Virus record (IMG/VR): IMGVR_UViG_3300036768_001066
Length of the DNA stretch: 64,000 nt
Reading direction: 5' to 3' (one strand)
DNA from: a virus
Taxonomy: Duplodnaviria; Heunggongvirae; Uroviricota; Caudoviricetes
The stretch's first letter is position 1; each line of letters begins with the position of its first letter. Below are positions 11,772-55,876 of this stretch, piece after piece. Under the pieces are notes generated by a model that ran no database searches, had not been told where the DNA came from, and saw only the letters and a list, made by a program, of their open reading frames with translations. The translations under genes were made by a program, and so were the position numbers.

Positions 11772-12713
11772 ATGAAAAAACGTTATTGCAAGGCATGCTC
11801 TATGCAGGAGCACGGGGTAAAAACCAGGATAGCCATACCGCACACGTGTGGCAAGGAGCCGCGCCGCATAAAGATGTTCGAGCAGTTCGTGTTCGAATCC
11901 ACTTACAATGTGCTGCACGGTACAAAGTCTCCTAAATTCGATAAGTTCCAGGTCAGTCATGATGAGGCCAACGGGATGTACGGCACAGACTCCCCCGATA
12001 ATGGCATGGGCGTGTTCTTCACCGATAACGATACAATGGCCGAGTTCTTCGCAGGTCTAACGCACTTCGATGCCGACAAGGGCAAATACGTGTCCAAGAG
12101 CGGCAAGGGACGTGTTATGAACGTGACCATCAGTATAGATAAGCCTTACGTCATCGATGACAAACACAAGGACTACGATGCCGATAACGATATGGACTCG
12201 GTGCAGATATATTTTGACGAAATAAAGGATGCTGGCGGTGCCGATAAGTACAGAGCTTCGTTAGAGAAGCGCGGATACGACGGGATAATCCTAAAGAAGT
12301 GCACCACGAATTATTACGGGAAGGGAACTTACACTGTATACGTTGTGTTCGATCCTCGCAATACTAAAATCAACGAGAACAAGTCCAAGATATACTACAA
12401 CCACTGGGACAAGCGTTGGACCATGAAGGAGTTCGTAAAGTATTTCGTGGACGAGCTGGGACTGTTCTCCGAACAGGAGGTTTCTAACTGGTTCGAGAAG
12501 TACGACTTAACCAATGATTCCGAGGTGGTTTGGGTGTCCATGGACAAGATGTCAAACAACACCAAGGGCATGTCTGTTGACCACTATTCTGGCGCCAACG
12601 ATGCGCCGAGTGCCGATATTTCGTCCATATTTGTTGACGGTGAGGATGGGTACGTGATCCCGGAAATTTCCGACGGTGCGAACAGCTGCCTCTTTGTTGT
12701 TAAACAAAAATAG
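11772..12713 (+). CDS. hypothetical protein. Has an internal leader-like motif MFEQFVFES at residue 35, which is an alternative start at 11874.
   Basis: 313-aa ORF. TATATATAAGAT lies directly upstream of 11772. The leader-like motif sits at an internal Met. Confidence 0.5.
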   Translation: MKKRYCKACSMQEHGVKTRIAIPHTCGKEPRRIKMFEQFVFESTYNVLHGTKSPKFDKFQVSHDEANGMYGTDSPDNGMGVFFTDNDTMAEFFAGLTHFDADKGKYVSKSGKGRVMNVTISIDKPYVIDDKHKDYDADNDMDSVQIYFDEIKDAGGADKYRASLEKRGYDGIILKKCTTNYYGKGTYTVYVVFDPRNTKINENKSKIYYNHWDKRWTMKEFVKYFVDELGLFSEQEVSNWFEKYDLTNDSEVVWVSMDKMSNNTKGMSVDHYSGANDAPSADISSIFVDGEDGYVIPEISDGANSCLFVVKQK

Positions 12714-14455: not shown

Positions 14456-16384
14456 ATGGCGGGAATAGCACACTTAAACGAAATCTACAAAAAGAAGGGC
14501 AAAGATTTTCTGGACAAACTATTCGACAGTTATGTCACTATAAACGAAAAGCTCGACGCGAGCGCCTTTGGTGTAGAGAAGAATCCGATCAGCAAGAAGA
14601 TCGAATTCTTCAAGCGCAACACTACAAACCCAATTTCCCAGGTGGACAGGACCCTCGTGCGTTATTACGAGGCACCTATCGAGCATATCAACAGCCTTGG
14701 CGACAAGGTGCTTGCCAAGCTACCCAGTGGATGGAGGTTCGGTATGGAGTACTTCGCCAACTCAAATCCGCAGGAGCTTGTTTATGACAAGCTCCCGAAG
14801 AACGGATTGGTGCTGTCGTACATTCACGTGAAAAACTCGGCCGGCAAGATGGTCCGTACAATCCAGGACAAGGAAGAGCTCGATAAGTGGGCAGACATCC
14901 TGCAGGTGGAGCGCGCGCCGATAATATTCCAGGGCGTTCTCAACGACGACCAGAGGATAAAGATCCTCGACTTCCTCGACACGCCGCAGGCCGAGCTCGA
15001 GAAGAAGTTCAAGACCGAGTCCTTCGTGAAGTACGTAATATCCATTCTGAACCCAAAGATGCGCAGCACGGTCCTGAACAAGGATCTGGAGAAGCCAATA
15101 GAGGGAATAGTGTTTAGGTTCGGCAGCGACGACGATGACGTGGTGCTTGCCAAGATGGTGGACCCGATATTTTCGCAGATGGCGCAGAACAGGGTCAACG
15201 AGACGAACGACACGCCGAACGACATCTATTACATGACGCTCATCGACATAGCCAACTACGTCGAGAACCTAAACCTAAAGAAGTTCAAGCCGAAGGGGCG
15301 TAACTTCGACGACAGGTACATAAACTTCATCTGCGACCTATTCATAAAGTTCATATCCGAAAGGGGGGAGGACTACAAGAACATCAACTTCTCCGAGCCG
15401 GCTTACATGAAGAAAAAGGAGTTCGACCTCAACAGGCAGATGATACCGAACCAGGAGGCGCTCGATCTCATAGACTCGGCGGACTCGTACAAGAAACTGT
15501 TCAAGATAATGCTGGCATCTCTGCGCAAGCACAAGAAGAAGGCAAACAACTTCTTCAGCCAGGAGGTTATCCGCCAGTTCAATGGCACCATAGACAAGAT
15601 AAACAACCACCTATCACAGAACCTAAGGGAGAGCCTCAACGAAAACGACGTGCCATTGTTCGGCGAGTTCATAGCACAGAGGGGCAGGCCCGAAGTTGAG
15701 GACGAGGACGCAGACACCGATGGTGATTCTGTGGATGATTCCGATCCTGAAATGACCGGGCTCAAAAACACTATGGACCTTTTGTCCGCCGATGAGCCGA
15801 AAGAAGAGGAGGACGTCAAGAAGAAATCCAAGAAGAAGGGAAAGAGGGTTAACATAATAGTCGGAAGGTTCCAGCCGTTCCACAACGGGCACGCCGAGAT
15901 GGTGAAGGAACTTAACGAGGCCAACGGCTTGCCCGTCGTAATAGTCGCCGTGCATCCGGGACACAACAAGTCGGGCAACAGCCCGTTCACTATATCCACA
16001 CTGAGGACGATGCTTGGCAACCTGCACAAGGACACCAACGACCTCGTGATCGGCTACAGGATAGTCGGCAGGGGCTTCATACAGGACATCATAGATTCGC
16101 TGAGGCCGGAGTTCGAGCCGATACTGTGGGGCGCGGGTCCTGACAGGATAAACGACTACCGCAAGCAGCTCGAGTTTAACTTCAAGCGCAACAACGAGCT
16201 CGACCTCGACGAGAAGTTCGAGGTGATGGAGACTCGGAGGATCATATCGGGTACCGACGTGCGCAAGCTCGTGGACGAGGACAAGTTCGGCGAGTTCAAG
16301 ACGCACGTGCCAAAGACGGTGCAGGGCTTGTATCCTATACTTAGGAACGACATCCATAATAGCAAAGAACCCGCCAATCAGTAA
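14456..16384 (+). CDS. multidomain protein. N-terminal domain of unknown function with a KLDAS motif (possible ligase-like K-x-D-G variant), an acidic linker, and a C-terminal NMN/NaMN adenylyltransferase domain (NadM/NadR type).
   Basis: The C-terminal region has GRFQPFHNGH (G-x-F-x-P-x-H-x-G-H nucleotidyltransferase signature) and later ISGTDVR. The linker is DEDADTDGDSVDDSDPE. Confidence 0.55.
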   Translation: MAGIAHLNEIYKKKGKDFLDKLFDSYVTINEKLDASAFGVEKNPISKKIEFFKRNTTNPISQVDRTLVRYYEAPIEHINSLGDKVLAKLPSGWRFGMEYFANSNPQELVYDKLPKNGLVLSYIHVKNSAGKMVRTIQDKEELDKWADILQVERAPIIFQGVLNDDQRIKILDFLDTPQAELEKKFKTESFVKYVISILNPKMRSTVLNKDLEKPIEGIVFRFGSDDDDVVLAKMVDPIFSQMAQNRVNETNDTPNDIYYMTLIDIANYVENLNLKKFKPKGRNFDDRYINFICDLFIKFISERGEDYKNINFSEPAYMKKKEFDLNRQMIPNQEALDLIDSADSYKKLFKIMLASLRKHKKKANNFFSQEVIRQFNGTIDKINNHLSQNLRESLNENDVPLFGEFIAQRGRPEVEDEDADTDGDSVDDSDPEMTGLKNTMDLLSADEPKEEEDVKKKSKKKGKRVNIIVGRFQPFHNGHAEMVKELNEANGLPVVIVAVHPGHNKSGNSPFTISTLRTMLGNLHKDTNDLVIGYRIVGRGFIQDIIDSLRPEFEPILWGAGPDRINDYRKQLEFNFKRNNELDLDEKFEVMETRRIISGTDVRKLVDEDKFGEFKTHVPKTVQGLYPILRNDIHNSKEPANQ

Positions 16385-20368: not shown

Positions 20369-21223
20369 ATGAAAAAATTCGGATTATTAGCGATAGCTCT
20401 GAAGATAGGATCAAAGATCCTGAGCATACTCGCAAAAAGCACAAAGTTCGTTCTCGCCGGCGTTTCGTTCGCCGCTTACGCATACATATTCACCTGGCAA
20501 TTTTCCGTGATAATATTGTCCATGCTGATAGTCCACGAGTACGGTCATATCTGGGCTATGCAGCGTTGCGGCATAAAGACCAAGGGCATCTACCTGATAC
20601 CGTTCGTCGGCGGTCTCGCGGTCTCGGACGGCATGGCCAAGTCGAGGTGGGATGAGGTCTACATCGCTATGATGGGGCCCATATTCGGGTTCGCCCTATC
20701 GGTGGTGTCTCTTGTCATATACTGCGCCACCATGGACCCCCTATTTGCCGCGTGCGCATCGTGGATGGCCATGGTCAACATACTTAATCTGTTCCCTGTT
20801 ACCCCACTGGACGGAGGCAGGGTGCTGAAATCAATAACCTTGTCGATAGACAAGCGCGTTGGGTTCGCGTACATGCTGCTTGCGCTGCTTGCCATGCTTG
20901 CGGCCGTCGTGTTTCTCGGCCTGTGGACGTTTGTCGTCCTGATAATAATCGGTGGCCTCGAGCTTTACTTCGAGTACCAGAGCCACAAGATACAGCAGAC
21001 GTTGACCGAACTGGAGAAGCACAAGCCCAACCTGACCGATGAGAGCGCGAAGATCATGGACGAGCTGATAGAGAAGCACCGCGATACTACGGAGAAAATG
21101 GACGGGCGCATGATGATAAAGTCGATGGCGCTTTACCTTTTGGTGCTGGCCGCGCTGTACGTAGTTATGGCGCTGATGAACCACGTGCCCGGCGCAGACA
21201 TAGCAATGCAAATGCTTAAGTAA
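20369..21223 (+). CDS. M50 family site-2 protease (RseP/SpoIVFB-like membrane zinc metalloprotease)
   Basis: HEYGH (HExxH) inside a TM helix. LFPVTPLDGGRV (LDG motif). Multiple TM segments. Confidence 0.6.
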   Translation: MKKFGLLAIALKIGSKILSILAKSTKFVLAGVSFAAYAYIFTWQFSVIILSMLIVHEYGHIWAMQRCGIKTKGIYLIPFVGGLAVSDGMAKSRWDEVYIAMMGPIFGFALSVVSLVIYCATMDPLFAACASWMAMVNILNLFPVTPLDGGRVLKSITLSIDKRVGFAYMLLALLAMLAAVVFLGLWTFVVLIIIGGLELYFEYQSHKIQQTLTELEKHKPNLTDESAKIMDELIEKHRDTTEKMDGRMMIKSMALYLLVLAALYVVMALMNHVPGADIAMQMLK

Positions 21224-22129: not shown

Positions 22130-22401
22130 ACAACGAGGCAAAGTTCCTGTTAATAGATGGGAAGGCCAACACACAAACTCCTAAGATGAAGGAGAAAATC
22201 GACGCAGTAGTGTTCGTCGGTCTAAAGCTGGTAAAGAACGCGGGCGGCAAGGTGTATGTGACCGGGTGGGCACGCTAATGGCCAAGTCCGAGATAGACAA
22301 GATCCGCCGGAAATTCAACCGCTCCGAGATAGAGGATTTATAGTTGCATTTGTACCCGTAATGAAACTTTTGTTAATTTCTTGAATATATATGAATGCTA
22401 T

Positions 22402-22833
22402 GGGACCGTACGGCATCGACAGAGATCCAATGGTTCAGAGAAGCACGTCGTGTTACTGTGGAATCAACACGTAAAAAATGAGTCTACGTTTTAGATGGCA
22501 ACATCACTAACGAGGTCGGCGGACTTGCCGACGTGTTAGCAGTCGAGAAGGCAACCAAGGCTCAGCCTGTTGCTGCTCAAGTAGAAGAACTTGAGTTCGC
22601 CTAACACCGGGAAGCTGGACCAGGTCCAGTGACCCCAAAACTTCAACCCCTATGAGCCTACGCAACGGCGGGTCAAAGCTGGTAACGTGGGTAGATGGTC
22701 CGGATCGAAAGTCTGGGATATTTTGGGAGGTTAGAAAATCTCATCCTGTTCGGAAGGTTTGGAAACGTTCCTAAACGTGTAGAAGGCTGGTCATGAGGTT
22801 TTTTGGACGGCGGTTCGAATCCGCCCGGTTCCA
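22402..22833 (+). ncRNA. ssrA: tmRNA (ssrA-like). Acceptor stem GGGACCG / CGGUUCC with a G3:U70 wobble pair, a T-arm GGCGGUUCGAAUCCGCC, and an internal tag-like reading frame.
   Basis: A 7-bp acceptor stem forms between 22402-22408 and 22826-22832, including G3:U70, the alanine identity element. The 5' region GGCAUCGACAGAG resembles E. coli tmRNA GGAUUCGACGGG. AAAAAAUGAGUC precedes an open frame, resembling E. coli AAAAAAUAGUC before the resume codon. A rho-independent terminator follows. Confidence 0.7.
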
Positions 22834-22911
22834 CTGAAGGTTTGTTCATTCCTCGAAAAATGAACTGGTGGATGCTACTGGTTAAGATATTTAGTCATAC
22901 CGGTCGGCCCT

Positions 22912-22940
22912 AAAAGCGAACCTAAGTTCGCTTTTTTATT
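22912..22940 (+). terminator. rho-independent terminator (agcgaac / gttcgct plus TTTTTTATT)
   Basis: Hairpin and T-run downstream of the tmRNA 3' end. Confidence 0.6.
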
Positions 22941-39825: not shown

Positions 39826-40638
39826 ATGCCCGACCAACAATACAGAATTCGCCGGCAAGTTCAACGCGTCATAGGTGTTTATACGTTTTTACTCAACCTG
39901 CTATACGTCAACAGTAAGTACTACCATGTTCAGATCCCGGCGAGCATGCACTCGCTAATAGGTATAGTCATCGGCTTGCTGCTCGTTTTCAGGACGAACA
40001 CCGCGTACGACCGCTGGTGGGAGGGACGCAGGCTCTTCAGCGCGCTGTCGACCTCAATATCTTACTTCTCAATAAAATTGAACTCGTGCTGCACCGACGT
40101 CCTCGTGAAGACGCAGGCCCGTAACATCATAAAGCAGATACTGCGCAACCTGTCCGACTACCTGCGAGAGACGAACGCCGATAACGTCATGGGACATCAT
40201 AATAAGCAGACCAAGTTCGTTTGCGATATGTTGTTACTCATACGCGACGCCAAGTTGTCTGACAGGGACCTCAACATTCTCGAGGACAAACTAAATGAGA
40301 TAGTTGACATATCCAACTCGTTCGAGCGTATCAAGAGCACGCCGATACCGAAGGCGTACGCCCTGCACATAAAGGCATCGATATTCATATACCTGCTGAG
40401 CCTGCCATTCGGGTTGTTTCACGACCTCGGACTCTGGGCCGCAGCGATGGTCATGGTCATATTCTACATAGTCGCCGGCATCGAGATAATAAGCAACGAG
40501 ATAGAGGACCCATTCGCGGACGATCCGAACGACCTGCCGATAGACACGTACTTCAAGCAGATAAAGGACTCTATGAACATAATCAAGGAGAGCGTGAACT
40601 CGGAGTACGGGAAGTACGGAAAGGAGACCCTGAAATGA
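39826..40638 (+). CDS. bestrophin/UPF0187-family membrane channel homolog
   Basis: RTNTAYDRWWEGRRL matches the bestrophin-family RxxxAYxRWWEAR signature. Several TM helices. Confidence 0.6.
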   Translation: MPDQQYRIRRQVQRVIGVYTFLLNLLYVNSKYYHVQIPASMHSLIGIVIGLLLVFRTNTAYDRWWEGRRLFSALSTSISYFSIKLNSCCTDVLVKTQARNIIKQILRNLSDYLRETNADNVMGHHNKQTKFVCDMLLLIRDAKLSDRDLNILEDKLNEIVDISNSFERIKSTPIPKAYALHIKASIFIYLLSLPFGLFHDLGLWAAAMVMVIFYIVAGIEIISNEIEDPFADDPNDLPIDTYFKQIKDSMNIIKESVNSEYGKYGKETLK

Positions 40639-43296: not shown

Positions 43297-44811
43297 ATGA
43301 AAATGATCAACGAACAAGAGGTTTTTGAAACTTGGTCTCCGGTTATCAACGAGAAGACTAATATCAAAGACTCGAACAAAGTAGAATGGCTTTCTAAGTA
43401 CTGCCACTACCACTCGCTCAATGAGTCTGCTATCCACGCTGGATACGGCACTCTCGACGCGCTTAACGGTATGGGCCAGCCTTTGGCTCCGACCAGGTCC
43501 GCTAACGGTTCCGGCGACAAGTTCCCTTCACTTCTTCCGCTCGCTATCCAGGTAGCAGCTAAGACTGTAGGTTTCGACATCGTTCCGGTTATCCCGATGC
43601 CAGGCCCAACAGGTGTTCTCACCTACCTCGATTACGTTTACGCAGGTGGACGTATCGACAACGCTGACCATAAGCCACTCCTGATCAAGTTCAACGCGAC
43701 AGGTACGTGGACTAACGGTACATCGTACACCGCAACTTCAGGTGCTGGTACCCTTGCCCTTACCTTCGTTGGTAAGTCGAGGATCGACGGTTACCCAATC
43801 TTCAAGGTTGGTGCATCTACTCCGTCTACCATCTCTGTAGCTCAGGTTATTGGTGTGGTTGGCGCGACAGTAACAACTGACGCAGCTCCGGTTGCAGCTA
43901 CTAACGCTGCTGCCCTCGTAGCAATGCTCGAAGATCACATCCAAGGTTTCGCTGGTGCAGGTGACACTGACACAGCTAACTGGACCGGTCCTTACGCAGA
44001 TGCTAACGACTCTGGTCCAATGACCCGTGAAGTTGGTGAGTCTACCTACTACAGGACGACTAACCTCAAGACTTTCACCAAGTTCGTTGAGACTGAGACC
44101 TACCAGCTTGCTGCGCAGGTAACTACTGAGCAGATACAAGACCTTAACAAGCAGTTCGGTATCGACGTTGTGTCGATGGTTGAGAACTCGCTCGTTAACG
44201 ATGTATCACAGCACATCAACAAACACATCCTCGTGACCGCATTCGGTCTTGGTACGCAGAACGCTACTGAGTTCGCTGCAACTGAAGGACAGGTGCTCGA
44301 CCTCAACCTTACGGCTCTGCCTACGGTTGGTACGTACGAGAACCTCCAGACGTTCCAGAGGAGAATCTTCAGCCGCATACTTGCTGCCGCTAACGTAGTA
44401 GCAAACCGTGGTCGTCGTGGACCTGCGAACTTCGTTGTATGTAACTCTCAGATTGCTACGGCGATCCAGGACATCAGCCAGTTCCAGCCAGCTCCGTTCG
44501 CGAACACCGCAAGCCAGAACAACGGTGCTCTCTACCCAGTAGGATCACTCGCTGGTATGACTGTGTACGTTGACCAGAACATGAAGTGGACTGACACTCG
44601 CGTACTTGTCGGCCGTAAGGGCGCAGACGACGAGCCAGGTCTGAAGTTCATGCCGTACATGATGGCTGAGTCTATCCAGACAATCTCTGAAGGCACTATG
44701 TCTCCGAAGATCGCTGTGAAGTCTCGCTACGCCCTCGTGTCAGCTGGATTCCACCCACAGACAATGTACTTCACTTTCACGATCCAGGTGCCTACCTCAG
44801 GTATCATCTAA
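43297..44811 (+). CDS. major capsid protein, T4 gp23-like (HK97 fold)
   Basis: FDIVPVIPMPGPTGVLTYLDYVYAGG resembles the conserved gp23 core block (V..V.PM..P.G.i.YL). 504 aa. Preceded by the protease-scaffold gene and followed by a strong terminator. Confidence 0.75.
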   Translation: MKMINEQEVFETWSPVINEKTNIKDSNKVEWLSKYCHYHSLNESAIHAGYGTLDALNGMGQPLAPTRSANGSGDKFPSLLPLAIQVAAKTVGFDIVPVIPMPGPTGVLTYLDYVYAGGRIDNADHKPLLIKFNATGTWTNGTSYTATSGAGTLALTFVGKSRIDGYPIFKVGASTPSTISVAQVIGVVGATVTTDAAPVAATNAAALVAMLEDHIQGFAGAGDTDTANWTGPYADANDSGPMTREVGESTYYRTTNLKTFTKFVETETYQLAAQVTTEQIQDLNKQFGIDVVSMVENSLVNDVSQHINKHILVTAFGLGTQNATEFAATEGQVLDLNLTALPTVGTYENLQTFQRRIFSRILAAANVVANRGRRGPANFVVCNSQIATAIQDISQFQPAPFANTASQNNGALYPVGSLAGMTVYVDQNMKWTDTRVLVGRKGADDEPGLKFMPYMMAESIQTISEGTMSPKIAVKSRYALVSAGFHPQTMYFTFTIQVPTSGII

Positions 44812-47416: not shown

Positions 47417-47530
47417 TTTCTTCGTTTTCGAGGTGAAGGTGGTCGTAGATGATCTGTCGAGCAGGACAAGGCCGTCGACCGCCTTCGTTGCCTCGCGTAT
47501 CTCATCCATCAAGTCGTCCGGCCCGCCCAT
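47417..47530 (-). CDS. small hypothetical protein (37 aa)
   Basis: MGGPDDLMDEIREATKAVDGLVLLDRSSTTTFTSKTKK. TAATG overlap with the clpP stop. Confidence 0.25.
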
Positions 47531-48219
47531 TACTTCTTAGCAGAAGGGTCAGCTATAAGAATCTCATCGATCATTCCGTACTCCTTGGCTTGGCCGGATG
47601 TCATCCAGTAGTCACGGTCCGAGTCGGTCCACACCTTGTCGTACGTCTGACCCGAGTGGTTCGCGATTATCTCGTACAGTTCCTTCTTGAGAATCTGGAT
47701 CTCTCTGGCGGTGATCTCGATGTCCGAAGCCTGCCCCTCGGCGCCTCCGAGCGGCTGGTGTATCATTATCCTCGAGTGCTTTAGTGCCGAGCGCTTGCCC
47801 CTGGCACCTGCACACATAAGTACCGCTCCCATGGATGCTGCCATCCCGGTGCAGATGGTCGCTACGTCGGGCGTGATGTACTGCATGGTGTCGTATATTC
47901 CGAGACCCGCGTATACGCTGCCGCCTGGTGAGTTGATGTAAATTTGGATGTCCTTCTTTCCGTCGAGCGACTGCAGGAAGAGGAGCTGCGCCTGTATGAT
48001 GTTCGCGACCTCGTCGTATATCCCCGTTCCGAGGAAGATGATGCGGTCCATCATGAGACGCGAGAACACGTCCATCTCTGCCACGTTGAGCTGACGCTCC
48101 TCGATGATGTACGGTGTTATGCTGCTGTTGATGCCGTGCTTCGTGTAGGAATCAAACGTGTTTGAACTGATGCCCCTGTGTTTGACGGCATACTTTCTGA
48201 ATTCGTCTCTATTGTTCAT
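47530..48219 (-). CDS. clpP: ATP-dependent Clp protease proteolytic subunit ClpP
   Basis: INSPGGSVYAGLGIYDTM. TICTGMAASMGAVL (catalytic Ser). IMIHQPLGG (catalytic His). 229 aa. Confidence 0.85.
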   Translation of the reverse strand: MNNRDEFRKYAVKHRGISSNTFDSYTKHGINSSITPYIIEERQLNVAEMDVFSRLMMDRIIFLGTGIYDEVANIIQAQLLFLQSLDGKKDIQIYINSPGGSVYAGLGIYDTMQYITPDVATICTGMAASMGAVLMCAGARGKRSALKHSRIMIHQPLGGAEGQASDIEITAREIQILKKELYEIIANHSGQTYDKVWTDSDRDYWMTSGQAKEYGMIDEILIADPSAKK

Positions 48220-54727: not shown

Positions 54728-55876
54728 ATGAGGGTACTTGGCTTTGACGGATGGAGCAACCTCAACGAGGCTGCACAGTTCGACGACATAGTGGACAAGG
54801 TGAAGACTGCGGTTGAACCGGATATGGGCAAGCTTAATGTTGTCAAGGACCTCCACACATTCAAGCGCCCGGGGGAACCCGTGCAGACCGCCATACTTTT
54901 CAGCAACGACAAGATGCAGTCGTTCGCACTGAACATCGTCAAGGCGACCAACAAGCTGTACAGTATTGACATCTGGAAGCCGGAATCGAAGGGACCAGTG
55001 GCCACCGTGTATGCTAACAAGATGAGCGTTGACGATATTGTGCCGCAGCTCCCGGAGCTGGTTAACAACCCGAAGGTTAACGAGAAGGAAACCGATCTGA
55101 CCATCGCCGCGCCCAAGGCTAAGGAAGATACTACAGAGGACGCTAAGGTTGACGACGAGTACATCTTTGCGGACGATGAGGACGAGCTGTTCGACCAGAT
55201 ACGTTCGTACGTTGACATGGTAATCAAGGGCAAGCAGCCGGCGCTCATGCTGACCGGCATGCCAGGTCTCGGCAAGACGAGGATCGTCAAGGACCGCCTC
55301 GATGCAGCGGGAATGAAGCGCGACGTAGATTACGTGAAGATAACCGGAACCGCCTCCGCGGTCGGTTTGTACACGCAGCTGTACGAGAACAACGGGAAGT
55401 TCATCCTGTTCGACGACTGCGACGGTGTGTTCGATGACAAGGATGGCGTCAATGTGTTGAAGGGAGCGCTCGACTCCGATGACAGGGAAATATCGTGGGC
55501 GAAGGCAAGCAAGCTAAGGACGTCTGACGACAAGCCCGTTCCAAAGAGGTTCGAGTTCAAGGGTAAGATAATATTCATAAGCAACAAGTCGATAAAGTCA
55601 CTGCCGCCGGCGCTGAAGAGCCGCTCGTTCATAGTGGAGGGAGCGTTGAGACCTAAGGACATGGCAGAGTACATGGAGAAGAATATAAAGGGATTCATGC
55701 CCGAAGAGAGCATGGAAGCGAAGAAGTTTGCGCTGAGCACCATAAAAGCGATAGCGAAGGAGGATCCTAAGATCAAGATTGACTGGAGGACCTTGCAGAA
55801 GGCCATGCGCATACTCGATTCGGTTTCTGATCTGGCGAAGGCAAAAAAAATGATAGCGCAGCAAGCGTACAACTAA
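54728..55876 (+). CDS. AAA+ ATPase with the leader-like N-terminus MRVLGFDGWSNLNE
   Basis: Walker A LTGMPGLGKT. Walker B ILFDDCDG. Sensor-like IIFISNKS. Confidence 0.55.
   Translation: MRVLGFDGWSNLNEAAQFDDIVDKVKTAVEPDMGKLNVVKDLHTFKRPGEPVQTAILFSNDKMQSFALNIVKATNKLYSIDIWKPESKGPVATVYANKMSVDDIVPQLPELVNNPKVNEKETDLTIAAPKAKEDTTEDAKVDDEYIFADDEDELFDQIRSYVDMVIKGKQPALMLTGMPGLGKTRIVKDRLDAAGMKRDVDYVKITGTASAVGLYTQLYENNGKFILFDDCDGVFDDKDGVNVLKGALDSDDREISWAKASKLRTSDDKPVPKRFEFKGKIIFISNKSIKSLPPALKSRSFIVEGALRPKDMAEYMEKNIKGFMPEESMEAKKFALSTIKAIAKEDPKIKIDWRTLQKAMRILDSVSDLAKAKKMIAQQAYN

What the first reader, a model, noticed from the sequence alone, without database searches (positions are those of the whole stretch)
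22402..22833. Phage-encoded tmRNA with a G3:U70 acceptor stem, co-occurring with a phage ClpP
Nucleotides 22402-22408 (GGGACCG) pair perfectly with 22826-22832 (CGGTTCC), including a G3:U70 wobble, the alanyl-tRNA synthetase identity determinant. A canonical T-arm (GGCGG-TTCGAAT-CCGCC) and a discriminator A sit at the 3' end. About 430 nt of intervening RNA carries an A-rich AAAAAAUGAGUC element before an open frame ending in ...VAAQVEELEFA then UAA, analogous to the E. coli resume context AAAAAAUAGUC. A rho-independent terminator follows. No cloverleaf tRNA could be folded from the T-arm, so tmRNA is the better reading. A ClpP protease is encoded at 47530-48219. Together they suggest the phage supplies both a ribosome-rescue tagging RNA and the protease for tagged proteins. 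The candidate tag does not end in the usual LAA.
Basis: partly seen in the sequence, partly recalled or inferred. Interest (0 to 1): 0.75.

Follow-up and report, generated by a model that had tools for sequence, protein, structure and literature searches.

The report
Huge-phage tmRNA with a long tag
A very large bacteriophage carries its own working-looking copy of tmRNA, the RNA that frees stalled ribosomes; phage tmRNAs are already known, but this one encodes an unusually long, conserved 35-residue tag that does not end like its likely host's tag.

Summary
Window 22402-22833 (+) is a full-length one-piece tmRNA (Rfam RF00023, 86.7 bits against a threshold of 47, E 3e-32). ARAGORN does not call it.

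Four relatives in syntenic phage contigs (86-93% identical, plus one more divergent) give 22 base pairs with compensatory changes. These support the acceptor stem with invariant G3:U70, the T-arm, helix 2 and PK1.

AAAAAAUGAGUC is loop 3 plus stem 2 of PK1. The resume codon is GGC at 22497, with an invariant A at -4. The tag is GNITNEVGGLADVLAVEKATKAQPVAAQVEELEFA, ending at UAA 22602-22604. Codon-position variation and an in-frame 3-nt indel indicate that it is translated.

The tRNA-like domain, PK1 and resume context match tmRNAs with G..YA[LM]AA tags, which I attribute to Bacteroidota. The phage version looks like a captured host-type ssrA with an expanded, re-terminated tag.

The ClpP gene is genuine. 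It lies 25 kb away on the other strand, no ClpX, ClpA, SspB or SmpB is in the window, and the tag lacks an LAA end. The proposed tmRNA-ClpP module is therefore unsupported.

Phage tmRNAs are already known, so this is a new member of a known kind.

The parts
22345..22401 (+). Conserved upstream block (GCATTTGT 22347-22354, GAAACTTT 22363-22370, ATATATA 22385-22391); putative promoter and short leader
   Evidence: These motifs are invariant or nearly so in all five phage loci (alignment A4). No sigma-70-type promoter was found. The Bacteroidetes TANNTTTG motif is not enriched in the window. The promoter class is therefore unassigned.
22402..22833 (+). Mature one-piece tmRNA (ssrA), 432 nt up to the discriminator A; CCA is not encoded
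   Evidence: Rfam RF00023 full-length match, 86.7 bits, E 3.1e-32. Homologues score 88.2, 83.2 and 62.7 bits. 22 pairs show compensatory change, against 6.1 +/- 2.0 in shuffles and 2-6 in slid controls.
22402..22408 (+). Acceptor stem, 5' strand GGGACCG (G3 of the G3:U70 pair)
   Evidence: Pairs with 22826-22832. G3:U70 is invariant in 5 of 5 sequences. Pair 7 changes G-C to U-A in L057.
22420..22448 (+). Helix 2, 5' strand (pairs with 22775-22805)
   Evidence: 22 pairs in three segments, 7 of them with compensatory change (helices 3-5).
22449..22487 (+). Pseudoknot PK1: stem 1 CGUGUU 22449-22454 / AACACG 22466-22471; stem 2 UGUGGA-A-UCA 22457-22466 / UGA-G-UCUACG 22478-22488 approx.; A-rich loop 3 at 22472-22478
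   Evidence: Stem 1 has 2 compensatory pairs (CGUGCG/CGCACG in L057). Stem 2 is -7.7 kcal/mol, with only 4-6% of shuffles as good. L044 and L071 use GGUAG/CUAUC, with matching 1-nt insertions on both strands. The same architecture is seen in the aligned cellular tmRNAs.
22493..22499 (+). Frame-setting A (22493, four nt upstream) and resume codon GGC (22497-22499)
   Evidence: A92 of the tmRNA is invariant in all five sequences. It corresponds to E. coli A86, the main frame determinant, four nt before the resume codon (PMC2481249). The Rfam alignment puts the resume codon here. It aligns with the UUUUAAUU|GGC context of GENNYALAA-type tmRNAs.
22497..22604 (+). Tag reading frame: 35 codons, GNITNEVGGLADVLAVEKATKAQPVAAQVEELEFA, plus UAA (22602-22604)
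   Evidence: Variable columns by codon position are 3, 6 and 14. Synonymous to non-synonymous codon differences are 42:25 in this frame, against 3:70 and 8:68 in the other two. L071 has an in-frame 3-nt deletion. Upstream of about 22490 the relatives differ by 1-nt indels and unrelated sequence.
22605..22774 (+). 3' structured domain, in the position of PK2-PK4
   Evidence: Conserved hairpins, several with compensatory changes (helices 12-18). The Rfam alignment has low posterior probability here. A search for conserved H-type pseudoknots found none convincing.
22775..22805 (+). Helix 2, 3' strand
   Evidence: See helix 2, 5' strand.
22809..22833 (+). T-arm (GGCGG-TTCGAAT-CCGCC), acceptor 3' strand CGGTTCC, discriminator A
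   Evidence: Read directly. The T-stem has 2 compensatory pairs: GAGGG/CCCTC in L057 and GCGGG/CCCGC in L071.
22834..22911 (+). Conserved 3' trailer: AAGGTTTG 22837-22844, hairpin GTTCAT/ATGAAC 22844-22865, CTGGTGGA 22866-22873, CGGTCGGCCC 22901-22910
   Evidence: Present in all five loci. The hairpin covaries: A-U becomes G-C in L044 and G.U in L071. It is probably precursor sequence removed in 3' processing; its function is not established.
22912..22937 (+). Intrinsic terminator: AAAAGCGAAC-CTAA-GTTCGCTTTT, then a U-run
   Evidence: A 10-bp hairpin in the MFE fold of the trailer. An equivalent hairpin plus T-run is present in L060, L071 and L057. The consensus scan did not list it.
47530..48219 (-). 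ClpP protease subunit; named in the finding, but no link to the tmRNA is shown
   Evidence: Pfam CLP_protease 5.4e-75. It matches solved ClpP structures at 2.8e-70, and the aligned sequence keeps the ...AASMGA... and ...IHQPLGG... motifs. It is 84% identical to a ClpP of huge phage LR756502 and 60% identical to Lak phage ClpP.

Best explanation
This is a functional, phage-encoded one-piece tmRNA (ssrA) of a huge T4-core, Lak-related phage.

Shown:
- The RNA has a tRNA-Ala-like domain (G3:U70, discriminator A, canonical T-arm), a long covarying helix 2, pseudoknot PK1, and a frame-setting A four nt before a GGC resume codon.
- It has a 35-codon tag frame closed by UAA.
- All of this is conserved in four related phage contigs, with compensatory base changes in the helices and mostly synonymous changes in the tag.

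Inferred mechanism:
- It is transcribed as a precursor of about 540 nt, running from a conserved upstream block to a terminator at 22912-22937.
- The 5' end is trimmed at G22402 and the 3' end after A22833. Host enzyme adds CCA and host AlaRS charges it with alanine.
- With SmpB (host or phage-encoded elsewhere) and EF-Tu it enters ribosomes stalled on broken mRNAs during infection.
- It adds Ala-GNITNEVGGLADVLAVEKATKAQPVAAQVEELEFA and releases the ribosome at UAA.

Inferred origin: capture of a Bacteroidota-type ssrA. The tRNA-like domain, PK1 and the UUUUAxxU|GGC resume context are shared with tmRNAs whose tags are GENNYALAA, GESNYAMAA or GNTQYAMAA. The tag was later expanded from 9 to 35 codons and its end changed from YA[LM]AA to ELEFA.

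The main benefit to the phage is probably keeping ribosomes available. What happens to the tagged proteins is unknown.
For: - Covariance model: RF00023 full length, 86.7 bits, E 3e-32. Relatives score 88.2, 83.2 and 62.7 bits.
- Covariation: on five sequences, 95.4% of cells are paired and 22 pairs have changes on both sides. Shuffles give 6.1 +/- 2.0 (0 of 500 reach 22) and slid controls give 2-6. RNAalifold on four sequences found 21 such pairs.
- PK1: stem 1 has two compensatory pairs. Stem 2 is re-formed with different sequence in L044 and L071.
- Tag frame: third-position bias 3/6/14. Synonymous to non-synonymous 42:25 in frame, against 3:70 and 8:68 out of frame. There is an in-frame 3-nt indel and an invariant A at -4. 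A86 is the main frame determinant in E. coli (PMC2481249).
- Synteny: the gene sits between the M50-peptidase/DHFR genes and the 122-aa and 745-aa genes in the window, L071 and L057; L060, a short contig, shares only the downstream part of this order. All are phage contigs.
- Phage identity of the window: gp23 capsid, S77 prohead protease, UvsW, gp32, PolB. The nearest capsids are LR756500 and the Lak phages. The ClpP protein also occurs on a 0.2-1 Mb contig.
- Host-type resemblance: every cellular tmRNA retrieved by the shared 3' end for which ARAGORN returned a tag at the normal position has a G-start YA[LM]AA tag. One such locus, L052, carries TamL and a 288-aa primary sigma factor, which I take as Bacteroidota markers. 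The upstream context aligns.
- Precedent: huge phages carry tmRNA and SmpB (PMC7162821). Known tag lengths span 8-35 residues (PMC8012679).
Against: - ARAGORN does not call the gene in the window, L044, L060 or L057.
- CCA is not encoded.
- No SmpB gene is in the 64-kb window.
- The region where PK2-PK4 should lie aligns poorly to the Rfam model, and no conserved pseudoknot could be shown there.
- Only five sequences are available and three are close, so most covariation comes from one divergent relative (L057).
- The 3' half of the tag is invariant even at third positions and lies in a conserved hairpin. There, RNA structure rather than coding could explain the conservation.
- No promoter of a known class was found.
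- There are no expression, charging or tagging data. The host assignment is indirect.
Confidence: 0.85

Rival explanations
1. One reading: the phage carries a self-contained quality-control module, in which its tmRNA tags proteins and its own ClpP degrades them.
For: Both genes are real and lie in the same window. ClpP is conserved in related huge phages: 84% identity in LR756502 and 60% in the Lak phages. The tag has conserved N- and C-terminal blocks, which suggests that something recognises it.
Against: The two genes are 25 kb apart on opposite strands. ClpP cannot degrade folded or tagged proteins without a Clp ATPase, and no ClpX, ClpA or SspB family hit appears among 73 ORFs of the window. 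The tag ends in EFA, not the [LM]AA end of the host-type tags. blastn with the tmRNA region, with its 3' end and with the tag peptide found no counterpart of this tmRNA in LR756502 or the Lak records, which do carry ClpP; this would miss divergent tmRNAs. Co-occurrence beyond this window could not be tested.
Confidence: 0.1
2. The tag is a phage-specific signal that the host's ClpXP does not read. Either it sends tagged chains to another protease (Lon-like or FtsH-like, or one working through a phage adaptor), as the long Mycoplasma tags do, or it rescues ribosomes without triggering degradation.
For: The tag is 35 residues, against 9 in the presumed host-type tmRNAs, and ends ELEFA instead of YA[LM]AA. 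Its two ends (GNI[TS]NEVGG and AQVEELEFA) are invariant while the middle varies. There is a precedent: the 27-residue Mesoplasma florum tag is degraded by Lon and is orthogonal to E. coli ClpXP (PMC8138137, PMC3439342). Phage G's tmRNA tag also ends differently, in ...ELQVA (PMC12484599).
Against: There is no biochemical evidence of any kind. The invariance of the C-terminal block may reflect the RNA hairpin that encodes it (helix 11). ClpX recognition of an ...EFA terminus has not been excluded. No Lon or adaptor gene was seen in the window.
Confidence: 0.2
3. The real tag is short. Translation resumes at GCU GCU (22566), giving AAQVEELEFA, as ARAGORN reports for the homologue in L071. The upstream in-frame conservation would then be RNA structure.
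For: ARAGORN's only call in this family gives this 10-residue tag. Ten residues is the usual tag length. Part of the upstream variation can be read as loop changes and G-C to G.U changes in hairpin 22518-22535.
Against: That codon lies about 80 nt downstream of PK1 and has no A at -4 in the usual context. The invariant A at -4, the spacing from PK1, the Rfam alignment and the homology to cellular UUUUAAUU|GGC contexts all point to GGC 22497. Third-position variation begins at the very first codon (GGC to GGA) and runs through the whole 5' half. The L071 indel, upstream of the short tag, is exactly 3 nt.
Confidence: 0.05
4. The RNA is a decoy or an inert passenger. Either it is a captured host ssrA that is no longer used for tagging and titrates SmpB or blocks host trans-translation, as proposed for the TLD-only RNA of mycobacteriophage DS6A, or it is an attachment-site remnant.
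For: A TLD-only phage RNA exists and such molecules inhibit tmRNA (PMC4131195). The Rfam score (87 bits) is well below that of cellular relatives (141-147 bits).
Against: The gene is full length with an intact, selectively conserved tag frame and stop codon in five loci. It lies in the middle of phage genes with conserved synteny, not at a prophage end, and no integrase is adjacent. Compensatory changes show continued selection on the whole fold.
Confidence: 0.04

Closest known systems
Bacterial one-piece tmRNA (Rfam RF00023), specifically tmRNAs with G..YA[LM]AA tags that I attribute to Bacteroidota
   Same: They share the acceptor stem 3' strand CCGGUUCCA, the T-arm, the D-loop analogue, helix 2, the PK1 layout, the UUUUAxxU|GGC resume context with a Gly resume codon, and a UAA stop.
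   Different: The phage tag has 35 codons rather than 9 and ends ELEFA rather than YA[LM]AA. The RNA is about 65 nt longer, and the extra length is essentially the tag frame. The 3' domain is not alignable to PK2-PK4. The model score is 87 bits against 141-147. The gene is on a phage genome.
tmRNAs of huge phages (Al-Shayeb et al. 2020, PMC7162821) and of Bacillus phage G and Bxz1-like mycobacteriophages (PMC4131195, PMC12484599)
   Same: These are phage-borne ssrA genes in large genomes that also carry other translation-related genes. Phage G's tag (AKLNITNNELQVA) also lacks an LAA end.
   Different: There is no sequence match to any record of the phage collection or to IMG/VR. Those surveys used ARAGORN, which misses this gene. 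This tag is far longer than phage G's 13 residues.
Mycoplasma/Mesoplasma ssrA tags (27 residues, recognised by Lon)
   Same: A long tag with a different C-terminus, showing that long tmRNA tags can be matched to a protease other than ClpXP (PMC8138137, PMC3439342).
   Different: No homology is claimed. The organisms and the tmRNA backbone are different. No Lon gene or any degradation data exist here.
Canonical gut-phage tmRNA in MT835676.1 (locus L075) and permuted phage tmRNAs (L006, L014, L025)
   Different: Their tags are short and end in AA (ANNNSYRCAA, ANNLAMAA), and ARAGORN calls L075 and L006. They are unrelated in sequence to the window's tmRNA.

Membership tests
One-piece tmRNA (ssrA, Rfam RF00023) | Covariance-model score above the curated gathering threshold over the full model | tested here: met
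   86.7 bits against 47, model positions 1-374 of 374, E 3.1e-32.
One-piece tmRNA (ssrA, Rfam RF00023) | tRNA-Ala-like domain: 5' and 3' ends form a 7-bp acceptor stem with G3:U70, discriminator A, T-arm with GGUUCGAAUCC-type loop, no anticodon arm | tested here: met
   Read directly. G3:U70 is invariant in 5 of 5 sequences. There are compensatory changes in acceptor pair 7 and two T-stem pairs. No cloverleaf tRNA is called.
One-piece tmRNA (ssrA, Rfam RF00023) | 3'-terminal CCA | tested here: inconclusive
   Not encoded: the discriminator A is followed by CUG, CUU, CAA or CAG in the five loci. It would have to be added after transcription. Of the 26 cellular tmRNA 3' ends retrieved here, all but one (L048) also lack an encoded CCA.
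One-piece tmRNA (ssrA, Rfam RF00023) | Long helix 2 joining the tRNA-like domain to the mRNA/pseudoknot domain | tested here: met
   22 pairs in three segments, 7 with compensatory change (helices 3-5).
One-piece tmRNA (ssrA, Rfam RF00023) | Pseudoknot PK1 just upstream of the tag frame | tested here: met
   Stem 1 has 2 compensatory pairs. Stem 2 is 9 bp, -7.7 kcal/mol, with 4-6% of shuffles as good. It is re-formed as GGUAG/CUAUC in L044 and L071. Support for stem 2 is moderate, not strong.
One-piece tmRNA (ssrA, Rfam RF00023) | Tag reading frame without a start codon, set by a conserved A four nt upstream of the resume codon, closed by a stop codon | tested here: met
   A22493 is invariant. 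The resume codon is GGC or GGA. There are 35 codons (34 in L071) and UAA is invariant. The coding signature is 42:25 in frame, against 3:70 and 8:68 out of frame.
One-piece tmRNA (ssrA, Rfam RF00023) | Pseudoknots PK2-PK4 in the 3' domain | tested here: inconclusive
   The Rfam alignment has low posterior probability there. Conserved hairpins with covariation are present. No conserved H-type pseudoknot was found with five sequences. PK1-4 can be replaced in E. coli without loss of activity (PMC2481249), so this feature is not decisive.
One-piece tmRNA (ssrA, Rfam RF00023) | Alanylation, SmpB binding and trans-translation activity | not testable with these tools
   Needs biochemistry. No SmpB gene is in the window.
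   The tag ends in ...ELEFA in all five loci. Presumed host-type tags end in YALAA or YAMAA.
   ClpP is present and looks active. No ClpX, ClpA, SspB or AAA+ unfoldase family appears among 73 ORFs of the window. There is only a weak sub-threshold AAA hit at 54728-55876. The rest of the genome was not available.
   The genes are 25 kb apart on opposite strands. The related contigs are too short to show whether both genes travel together.

The most novel reading that the evidence does not exclude
The phage has rebuilt trans-translation for its own use. It captured a host-type ssrA and replaced the 9-residue YA[LM]AA degron with a 35-residue, two-module tag (GNI[TS]NEVGG ... AQVEELEFA) that the host ClpXP does not read. 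Proteins released from stalled ribosomes in infected cells would then be routed to a phage-chosen fate: a different protease or adaptor (possibly working with the phage ClpP), or no degradation at all. If so, this would be a natural orthogonal degron system carried by a virus.
Probability: 0.2. Interest if true: 0.65.

Novelty: new member of a known kind. Interest (0 to 1): 0.35.

Why it matters
This adds a well-supported, previously uncatalogued lineage of phage tmRNAs, with no match in the GenBank phage collection or IMG/VR.

It also exposes a practical blind spot. ARAGORN, the tool used in the huge-phage survey (PMC7162821), misses four of the five members and mis-assigns the tag of the fifth. 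Phage tmRNA counts and tag catalogues are therefore probably incomplete.

Biologically, the conserved 35-residue tag with a non-host terminus gives a concrete, testable case for a specific question: do phages use trans-translation only to recycle ribosomes, or also to control the fate of tagged proteins?

The proposed tmRNA-ClpP partnership, which made the finding look striking, is not supported by anything beyond co-occurrence in one window.

Tried and rejected
- ARAGORN at default and lowered thresholds gave no standard tmRNA call, only spurious 'permuted' calls.
- blastn of the locus, of its 3' end and of the tag peptide against 50,697 phage records found no relative. The only by-product was an unrelated canonical tmRNA in MT835676.1.
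- IMG/VR scans with the 3' end, a tag-derived degenerate pattern and the neighbouring 745-aa protein found nothing. A degenerate 5'-end pattern gave 27 loci that are chance matches or unrelated permuted tmRNAs.
- A genome-contig scan with the tag end gave five chance hits in coding DNA.
- More distant relatives of the 745-aa neighbour (L056, L058, L059, L061, L062) carry no tmRNA nearby, so synteny does not reach further.
- No sigma-70 promoter was found. The Bacteroidetes TTTG/TANNTTTG motifs are not enriched (23 observed, 26.6 expected) and are absent at the tmRNA. The conserved upstream block occurs only once in the window.
- I looked for other window ORFs ending like the tag (...[LIVMF]E[FYW]A) as a possible shared degron and found none.
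- I searched for conserved H-type pseudoknots in the 3' domain and found nothing convincing.
- I considered GAU (22494) or GCA (22498, +1 frame) as the resume codon and rejected both. The +1 frame ends in ...PTC and shows 3:70 synonymous to non-synonymous differences. GAU would put U, not A, at -4.
- I considered a prophage att-site remnant and rejected it on position and synteny.
- Caveats: the assignment of G..YA[LM]AA tags to Bacteroidota rests partly on my own knowledge, since a literature search for GENNYALAA found nothing. The local support is the TamL and short primary-sigma genes in L052.
Full report
**1. The observation**

- GGGACCG at 22402-22408 pairs with CGGTTCC at 22826-22832, including G3:U70.
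- The T-arm is GGCGG / TTCGAAT / CCGCC at 22809-22825.
- The discriminator A is at 22833. It is followed by CUG, so CCA is not encoded.

Infernal against Rfam 15 gives one hit in the whole 64-kb window. It is RF00023 (tmRNA) at 22402-22836 on the + strand, covering model positions 1-374 of 374. The score is 86.7 bits against a gathering score of 47, with E 3.1e-32. ARAGORN finds no tRNA or tmRNA in the window. Lowering its threshold gives only spurious 'permuted' calls.

**2. What the window is**

The window is phage DNA.
- It encodes a T4-type gp23 major capsid protein (43297-44811), an S77 prohead protease, a UvsW-like helicase, a gp32-like protein, family-B DNA polymerase and NAD-dependent ligase.
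- The nearest capsid proteins are those of the 462-kb metagenomic phage LR756500 (45% identity) and the roughly 540-kb Lak phages of Prevotella (40%).
- The exact ClpP protein of the window also occurs on a public contig in the 0.2-1 Mb size class.

This is a huge phage of the Lak-related group.

**3. Relatives of the RNA**

The GenBank phage collection and IMG/VR hold nothing similar.

A metagenome scan for the 3' end found one 93%-identical copy, L044. Homologues of the neighbouring 745-aa and 122-aa genes led to Logan contigs that carry the RNA in the same gene order:
- L060 (Rfam 88.2 bits)
- L071 (86% identical)
- L057, the most divergent (62.7 bits)

In the window, L071 and L057 the RNA lies downstream of an M50 peptidase (with DHFR in the window and L071) and a small conserved gene, and upstream of the 122-aa and 745-aa genes. 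L060 is a short contig that shows only the downstream part of this order. More distant relatives of the 745-aa gene have no tmRNA nearby.

**4. Structure**

On the five-sequence alignment, a nested consensus structure of 123 pairs has 95.4% of cells paired. 22 pairs have changes on both sides.
- Shuffled partners give 6.1 +/- 2.0, and 0 of 500 shuffles reach 22.
- Sliding the partners by 1-3 columns gives 2-6.

Compensatory changes fall in acceptor pair 7, the T-stem (2 pairs), helix 2 (7 pairs), PK1 stem 1 (2 pairs) and several 3'-domain hairpins. G3:U70 never varies.

PK1 stem 2 is UGUGGA-A-UCA paired with UGA-G-UCUACG (-7.7 kcal/mol; 4-6% of shuffled spacers do as well). L044 and L071 re-form it as GGUAG/CUAUC, with matching one-base insertions on both strands.

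The region where PK2-PK4 are expected aligns to the Rfam model only with low confidence. It folds into conserved hairpins. With five sequences I could not demonstrate any pseudoknot there. Published work shows the pseudoknots can be replaced in E. coli tmRNA without loss of function (PMC2481249), so this does not count against membership.

**5. The tag**

Four lines of evidence place the resume codon at GGC 22497-22499.
1. The Rfam alignment puts it there.
2. The A four bases upstream (22493) is invariant in all five sequences. It corresponds to E. coli A86, the dominant frame determinant located four nt before the resume codon (PMC2481249).
3. Upstream of about 22490 the relatives differ by single-base indels and, in L057, by unrelated sequence. 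From GGC onward the frame is kept.
4. The context UUUUAGAU|GGC aligns with UUUUAAUU|GGC and similar contexts in cellular tmRNAs, for which ARAGORN reads tags starting at that GGC.

The tag is GNITNEVGGLADVLAVEKATKAQPVAAQVEELEFA, 35 codons, with UAA at 22602-22604.

Variation across the five sequences behaves like coding sequence.
- Variable columns fall 3, 6 and 14 on codon positions 1, 2 and 3.
- Differing codon pairs are 42 synonymous to 25 non-synonymous in this frame. The other two frames give 3:70 and 8:68.
- The only indel, in L071, is exactly three bases.

There is a caveat. The last third of the frame is invariant and forms a perfect hairpin (helix 11). RNA structure could explain the conservation there.

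Published tag lengths span 8-35 residues (PMC8012679), so this tag is at the top of the known range.

**6. Likely origin and host**

The metagenome scan for the acceptor/T-arm 3' end also returned cellular tmRNAs scoring 141-147 bits. Where ARAGORN returned a tag at the normal position, the tags are GENNYALAA, GESNYAMAA, GEYSYAMAA, GNTQYAMAA or GDYDYALAA. From my own knowledge, these G-start YA[LM]AA tags are typical of Bacteroidota. One such locus, L052, carries TamL and a 288-aa primary sigma factor, which fits.

The phage RNA shares with these tmRNAs the tRNA-like domain, helix 2, the PK1 layout and the resume context. It differs in having 26 more codons and a different C-terminus.

This is best read as a captured host-type ssrA whose tag frame was expanded. 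It also fits the Prevotella host of the related Lak phages. The host assignment remains an inference.

**7. Transcription unit**

A block upstream of the gene is conserved in all five loci: GCATTTGT, GAAACTTT and ATATATA, ending 10 nt before G22402. It matches neither the sigma-70 consensus nor the Bacteroidetes TTTG/TANNTTTG type, which is also not enriched in the window.

Downstream, a trailer is conserved in all five loci. It consists of AAGGTTTG, a covarying hairpin at 22844-22865, CTGGTGGA and CGGTCGGCCC. It ends in a hairpin plus U-run terminator at 22912-22937.

The RNA is therefore probably made as a precursor of about 540 nt and trimmed at both ends. This step is inferred.

**8. The ClpP link**

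ClpP at 47530-48219 (-) is genuine. It scores 251.7 bits to Pfam CLP_protease and 2.8e-70 to solved ClpP structures, and the alignment keeps the ...AASMGA... and ...IHQPLGG... motifs. It is not the head-maturation protease, because the phage has a separate S77 enzyme next to the capsid gene.

Nothing ties ClpP to the tmRNA.
- It is 25 kb away on the other strand.
- ClpP needs a Clp ATPase. None of 73 ORFs scanned matches ClpX, ClpA, SspB or SmpB.
- The tag does not end in the [LM]AA of the host-type tags.
- ClpP is shared with LR756502 and the Lak phages. blastn with the tmRNA region, with its 3' end and with the tag peptide found no counterpart of this tmRNA in those records. That search would miss divergent tmRNAs.

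The rest of this genome was not available, so a phage ClpX or SmpB elsewhere cannot be excluded.

**9. How it most likely works**

What is shown is a conserved tmRNA fold with alanine identity elements and a conserved, coding-like tag frame.

What is inferred is the following. Host AlaRS charges the processed RNA after CCA addition. SmpB (host or phage) and EF-Tu deliver it to ribosomes stalled on truncated mRNAs, which should be abundant during a long infection with host mRNA breakdown. The ribosome then switches to GGC 22497, adds 35 residues and terminates at UAA.

The clearest benefit is ribosome recycling. The fate of tagged proteins is open. The conserved ends of the tag suggest that something recognises it. 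The long, Lon-specific Mycoplasma tags show that tmRNA tags can be matched to proteases other than ClpXP (PMC8138137, PMC3439342).

**10. Comparison with what is known, and novelty**

Phage tmRNAs are established.
- Huge phages carry tmRNA and SmpB (PMC7162821).
- Phage G and Bxz1-like mycobacteriophages are listed with ssrA (PMC4131195).
- Phage G's tag is AKLNITNNELQVA (PMC12484599).

The present RNA passes every testable defining feature of RF00023 except an encoded CCA and demonstrable PK2-PK4. It is a new member of a known kind.

Its distinctive points are:
- the 35-residue conserved tag with a non-host end;
- the absence of this lineage from the phage databases searched;
- its invisibility to ARAGORN, the tool used in the huge-phage survey.

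**11. Verdict**

The tmRNA interpretation is confirmed, with a corrected resume codon and PK1 assignment. The tmRNA-ClpP module is not supported. Interest is moderate to low (0.35). The most novel reading still open, a phage-specific degron that the host ClpXP does not read, has perhaps a one-in-five chance and would be clearly more interesting.

Noticed in passing
window 30830-33244 (+); L057:17554-20004: An 804-aa protein matches the major-vault-protein shoulder domain (2e-27), a vault repeat and the SPFH/Band 7 domain. A homologue is conserved in the related phage contig L057. A vault-protein-like gene in a huge phage is unexpected.
   Followed up: no
window 22834-22937; L044, L060, L071, L057 downstream of their tmRNAs: The roughly 100-nt 3' trailer of the tmRNA is as conserved as the RNA itself. 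It contains AAGGTTTG, a covarying hairpin, CTGGTGGA and CGGTCGGCCC, then a terminator. The invariant leader motif GAAACTTT (22363-22370) is complementary to the trailer's AAGGTTT, so a leader-trailer processing stalk is possible. Both sides are invariant, so this cannot be tested by covariation.
   Followed up: partly
L071:3327-3759; also window, L044, L060, L057: ARAGORN calls only one of the five homologous tmRNAs and gives it the tag AAQVEELEFA, starting about 80 nt downstream of PK1. ARAGORN-based phage annotation would miss or mis-annotate this family.
   Followed up: yes
L006:2753-2939(-), L014:5043-5321(+), L025:4444-4722(-) (IMG/VR contigs): Three viral contigs retrieved by a 5'-end pattern carry permuted (two-piece) tmRNA genes (RF04321, 64-69 bits) beside tRNA genes. 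Their 5' pieces begin GGGACCG, as in the window's tmRNA.
   Followed up: partly
L075:1152-1536 (MT835676.1, human faecal phage scaffold): A canonical-looking phage tmRNA (91.2 bits; ARAGORN tag ANNNSYRCAA) lies between tRNA-Pro and tRNA-Met on an unannotated GenBank phage scaffold.
   Followed up: partly
L043:10547-10575 and L055:6170-6198: Two metagenome contigs carry arrays of 30 tRNA genes. Each contains a tmRNA-type 3' end (GGACGCGGGTTCGAATCCCGCCGGTTCCA) that neither Rfam nor ARAGORN assigns to a tmRNA or tRNA. It sits just downstream of a coding region.
   Followed up: partly
window 20369-21223 (+); L057:2952-3884; L071:1089-2003: An M50 (site-2 protease-like) membrane metallopeptidase gene is conserved about 1.2 kb upstream of the tmRNA in the phage lineage.
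   Followed up: no
window 39826-40638 (+), 11772-12713 (+), 14456-16384 (+): Other unusual cargo: a bestrophin-like channel (9e-50), an ART-PolyVal ADP-ribosyltransferase (2e-12), and a 642-aa fusion of RNA-ligase-like and cytidylyltransferase-like domains.
   Followed up: no
window 33259-36328: The family-B DNA polymerase ORF (34901-36328, 475 aa) covers only the exonuclease domain and the start of the polymerase domain. It lies next to a NUMOD3 homing-endonuclease-like gene (33259-33996, -). The polymerase gene may be split or interrupted.
   Followed up: no
L060:840-1235: One relative has a LAGLIDADG homing-endonuclease gene inserted between the tmRNA and the 122-aa gene. It is absent from the window and from L071.
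   Followed up: no
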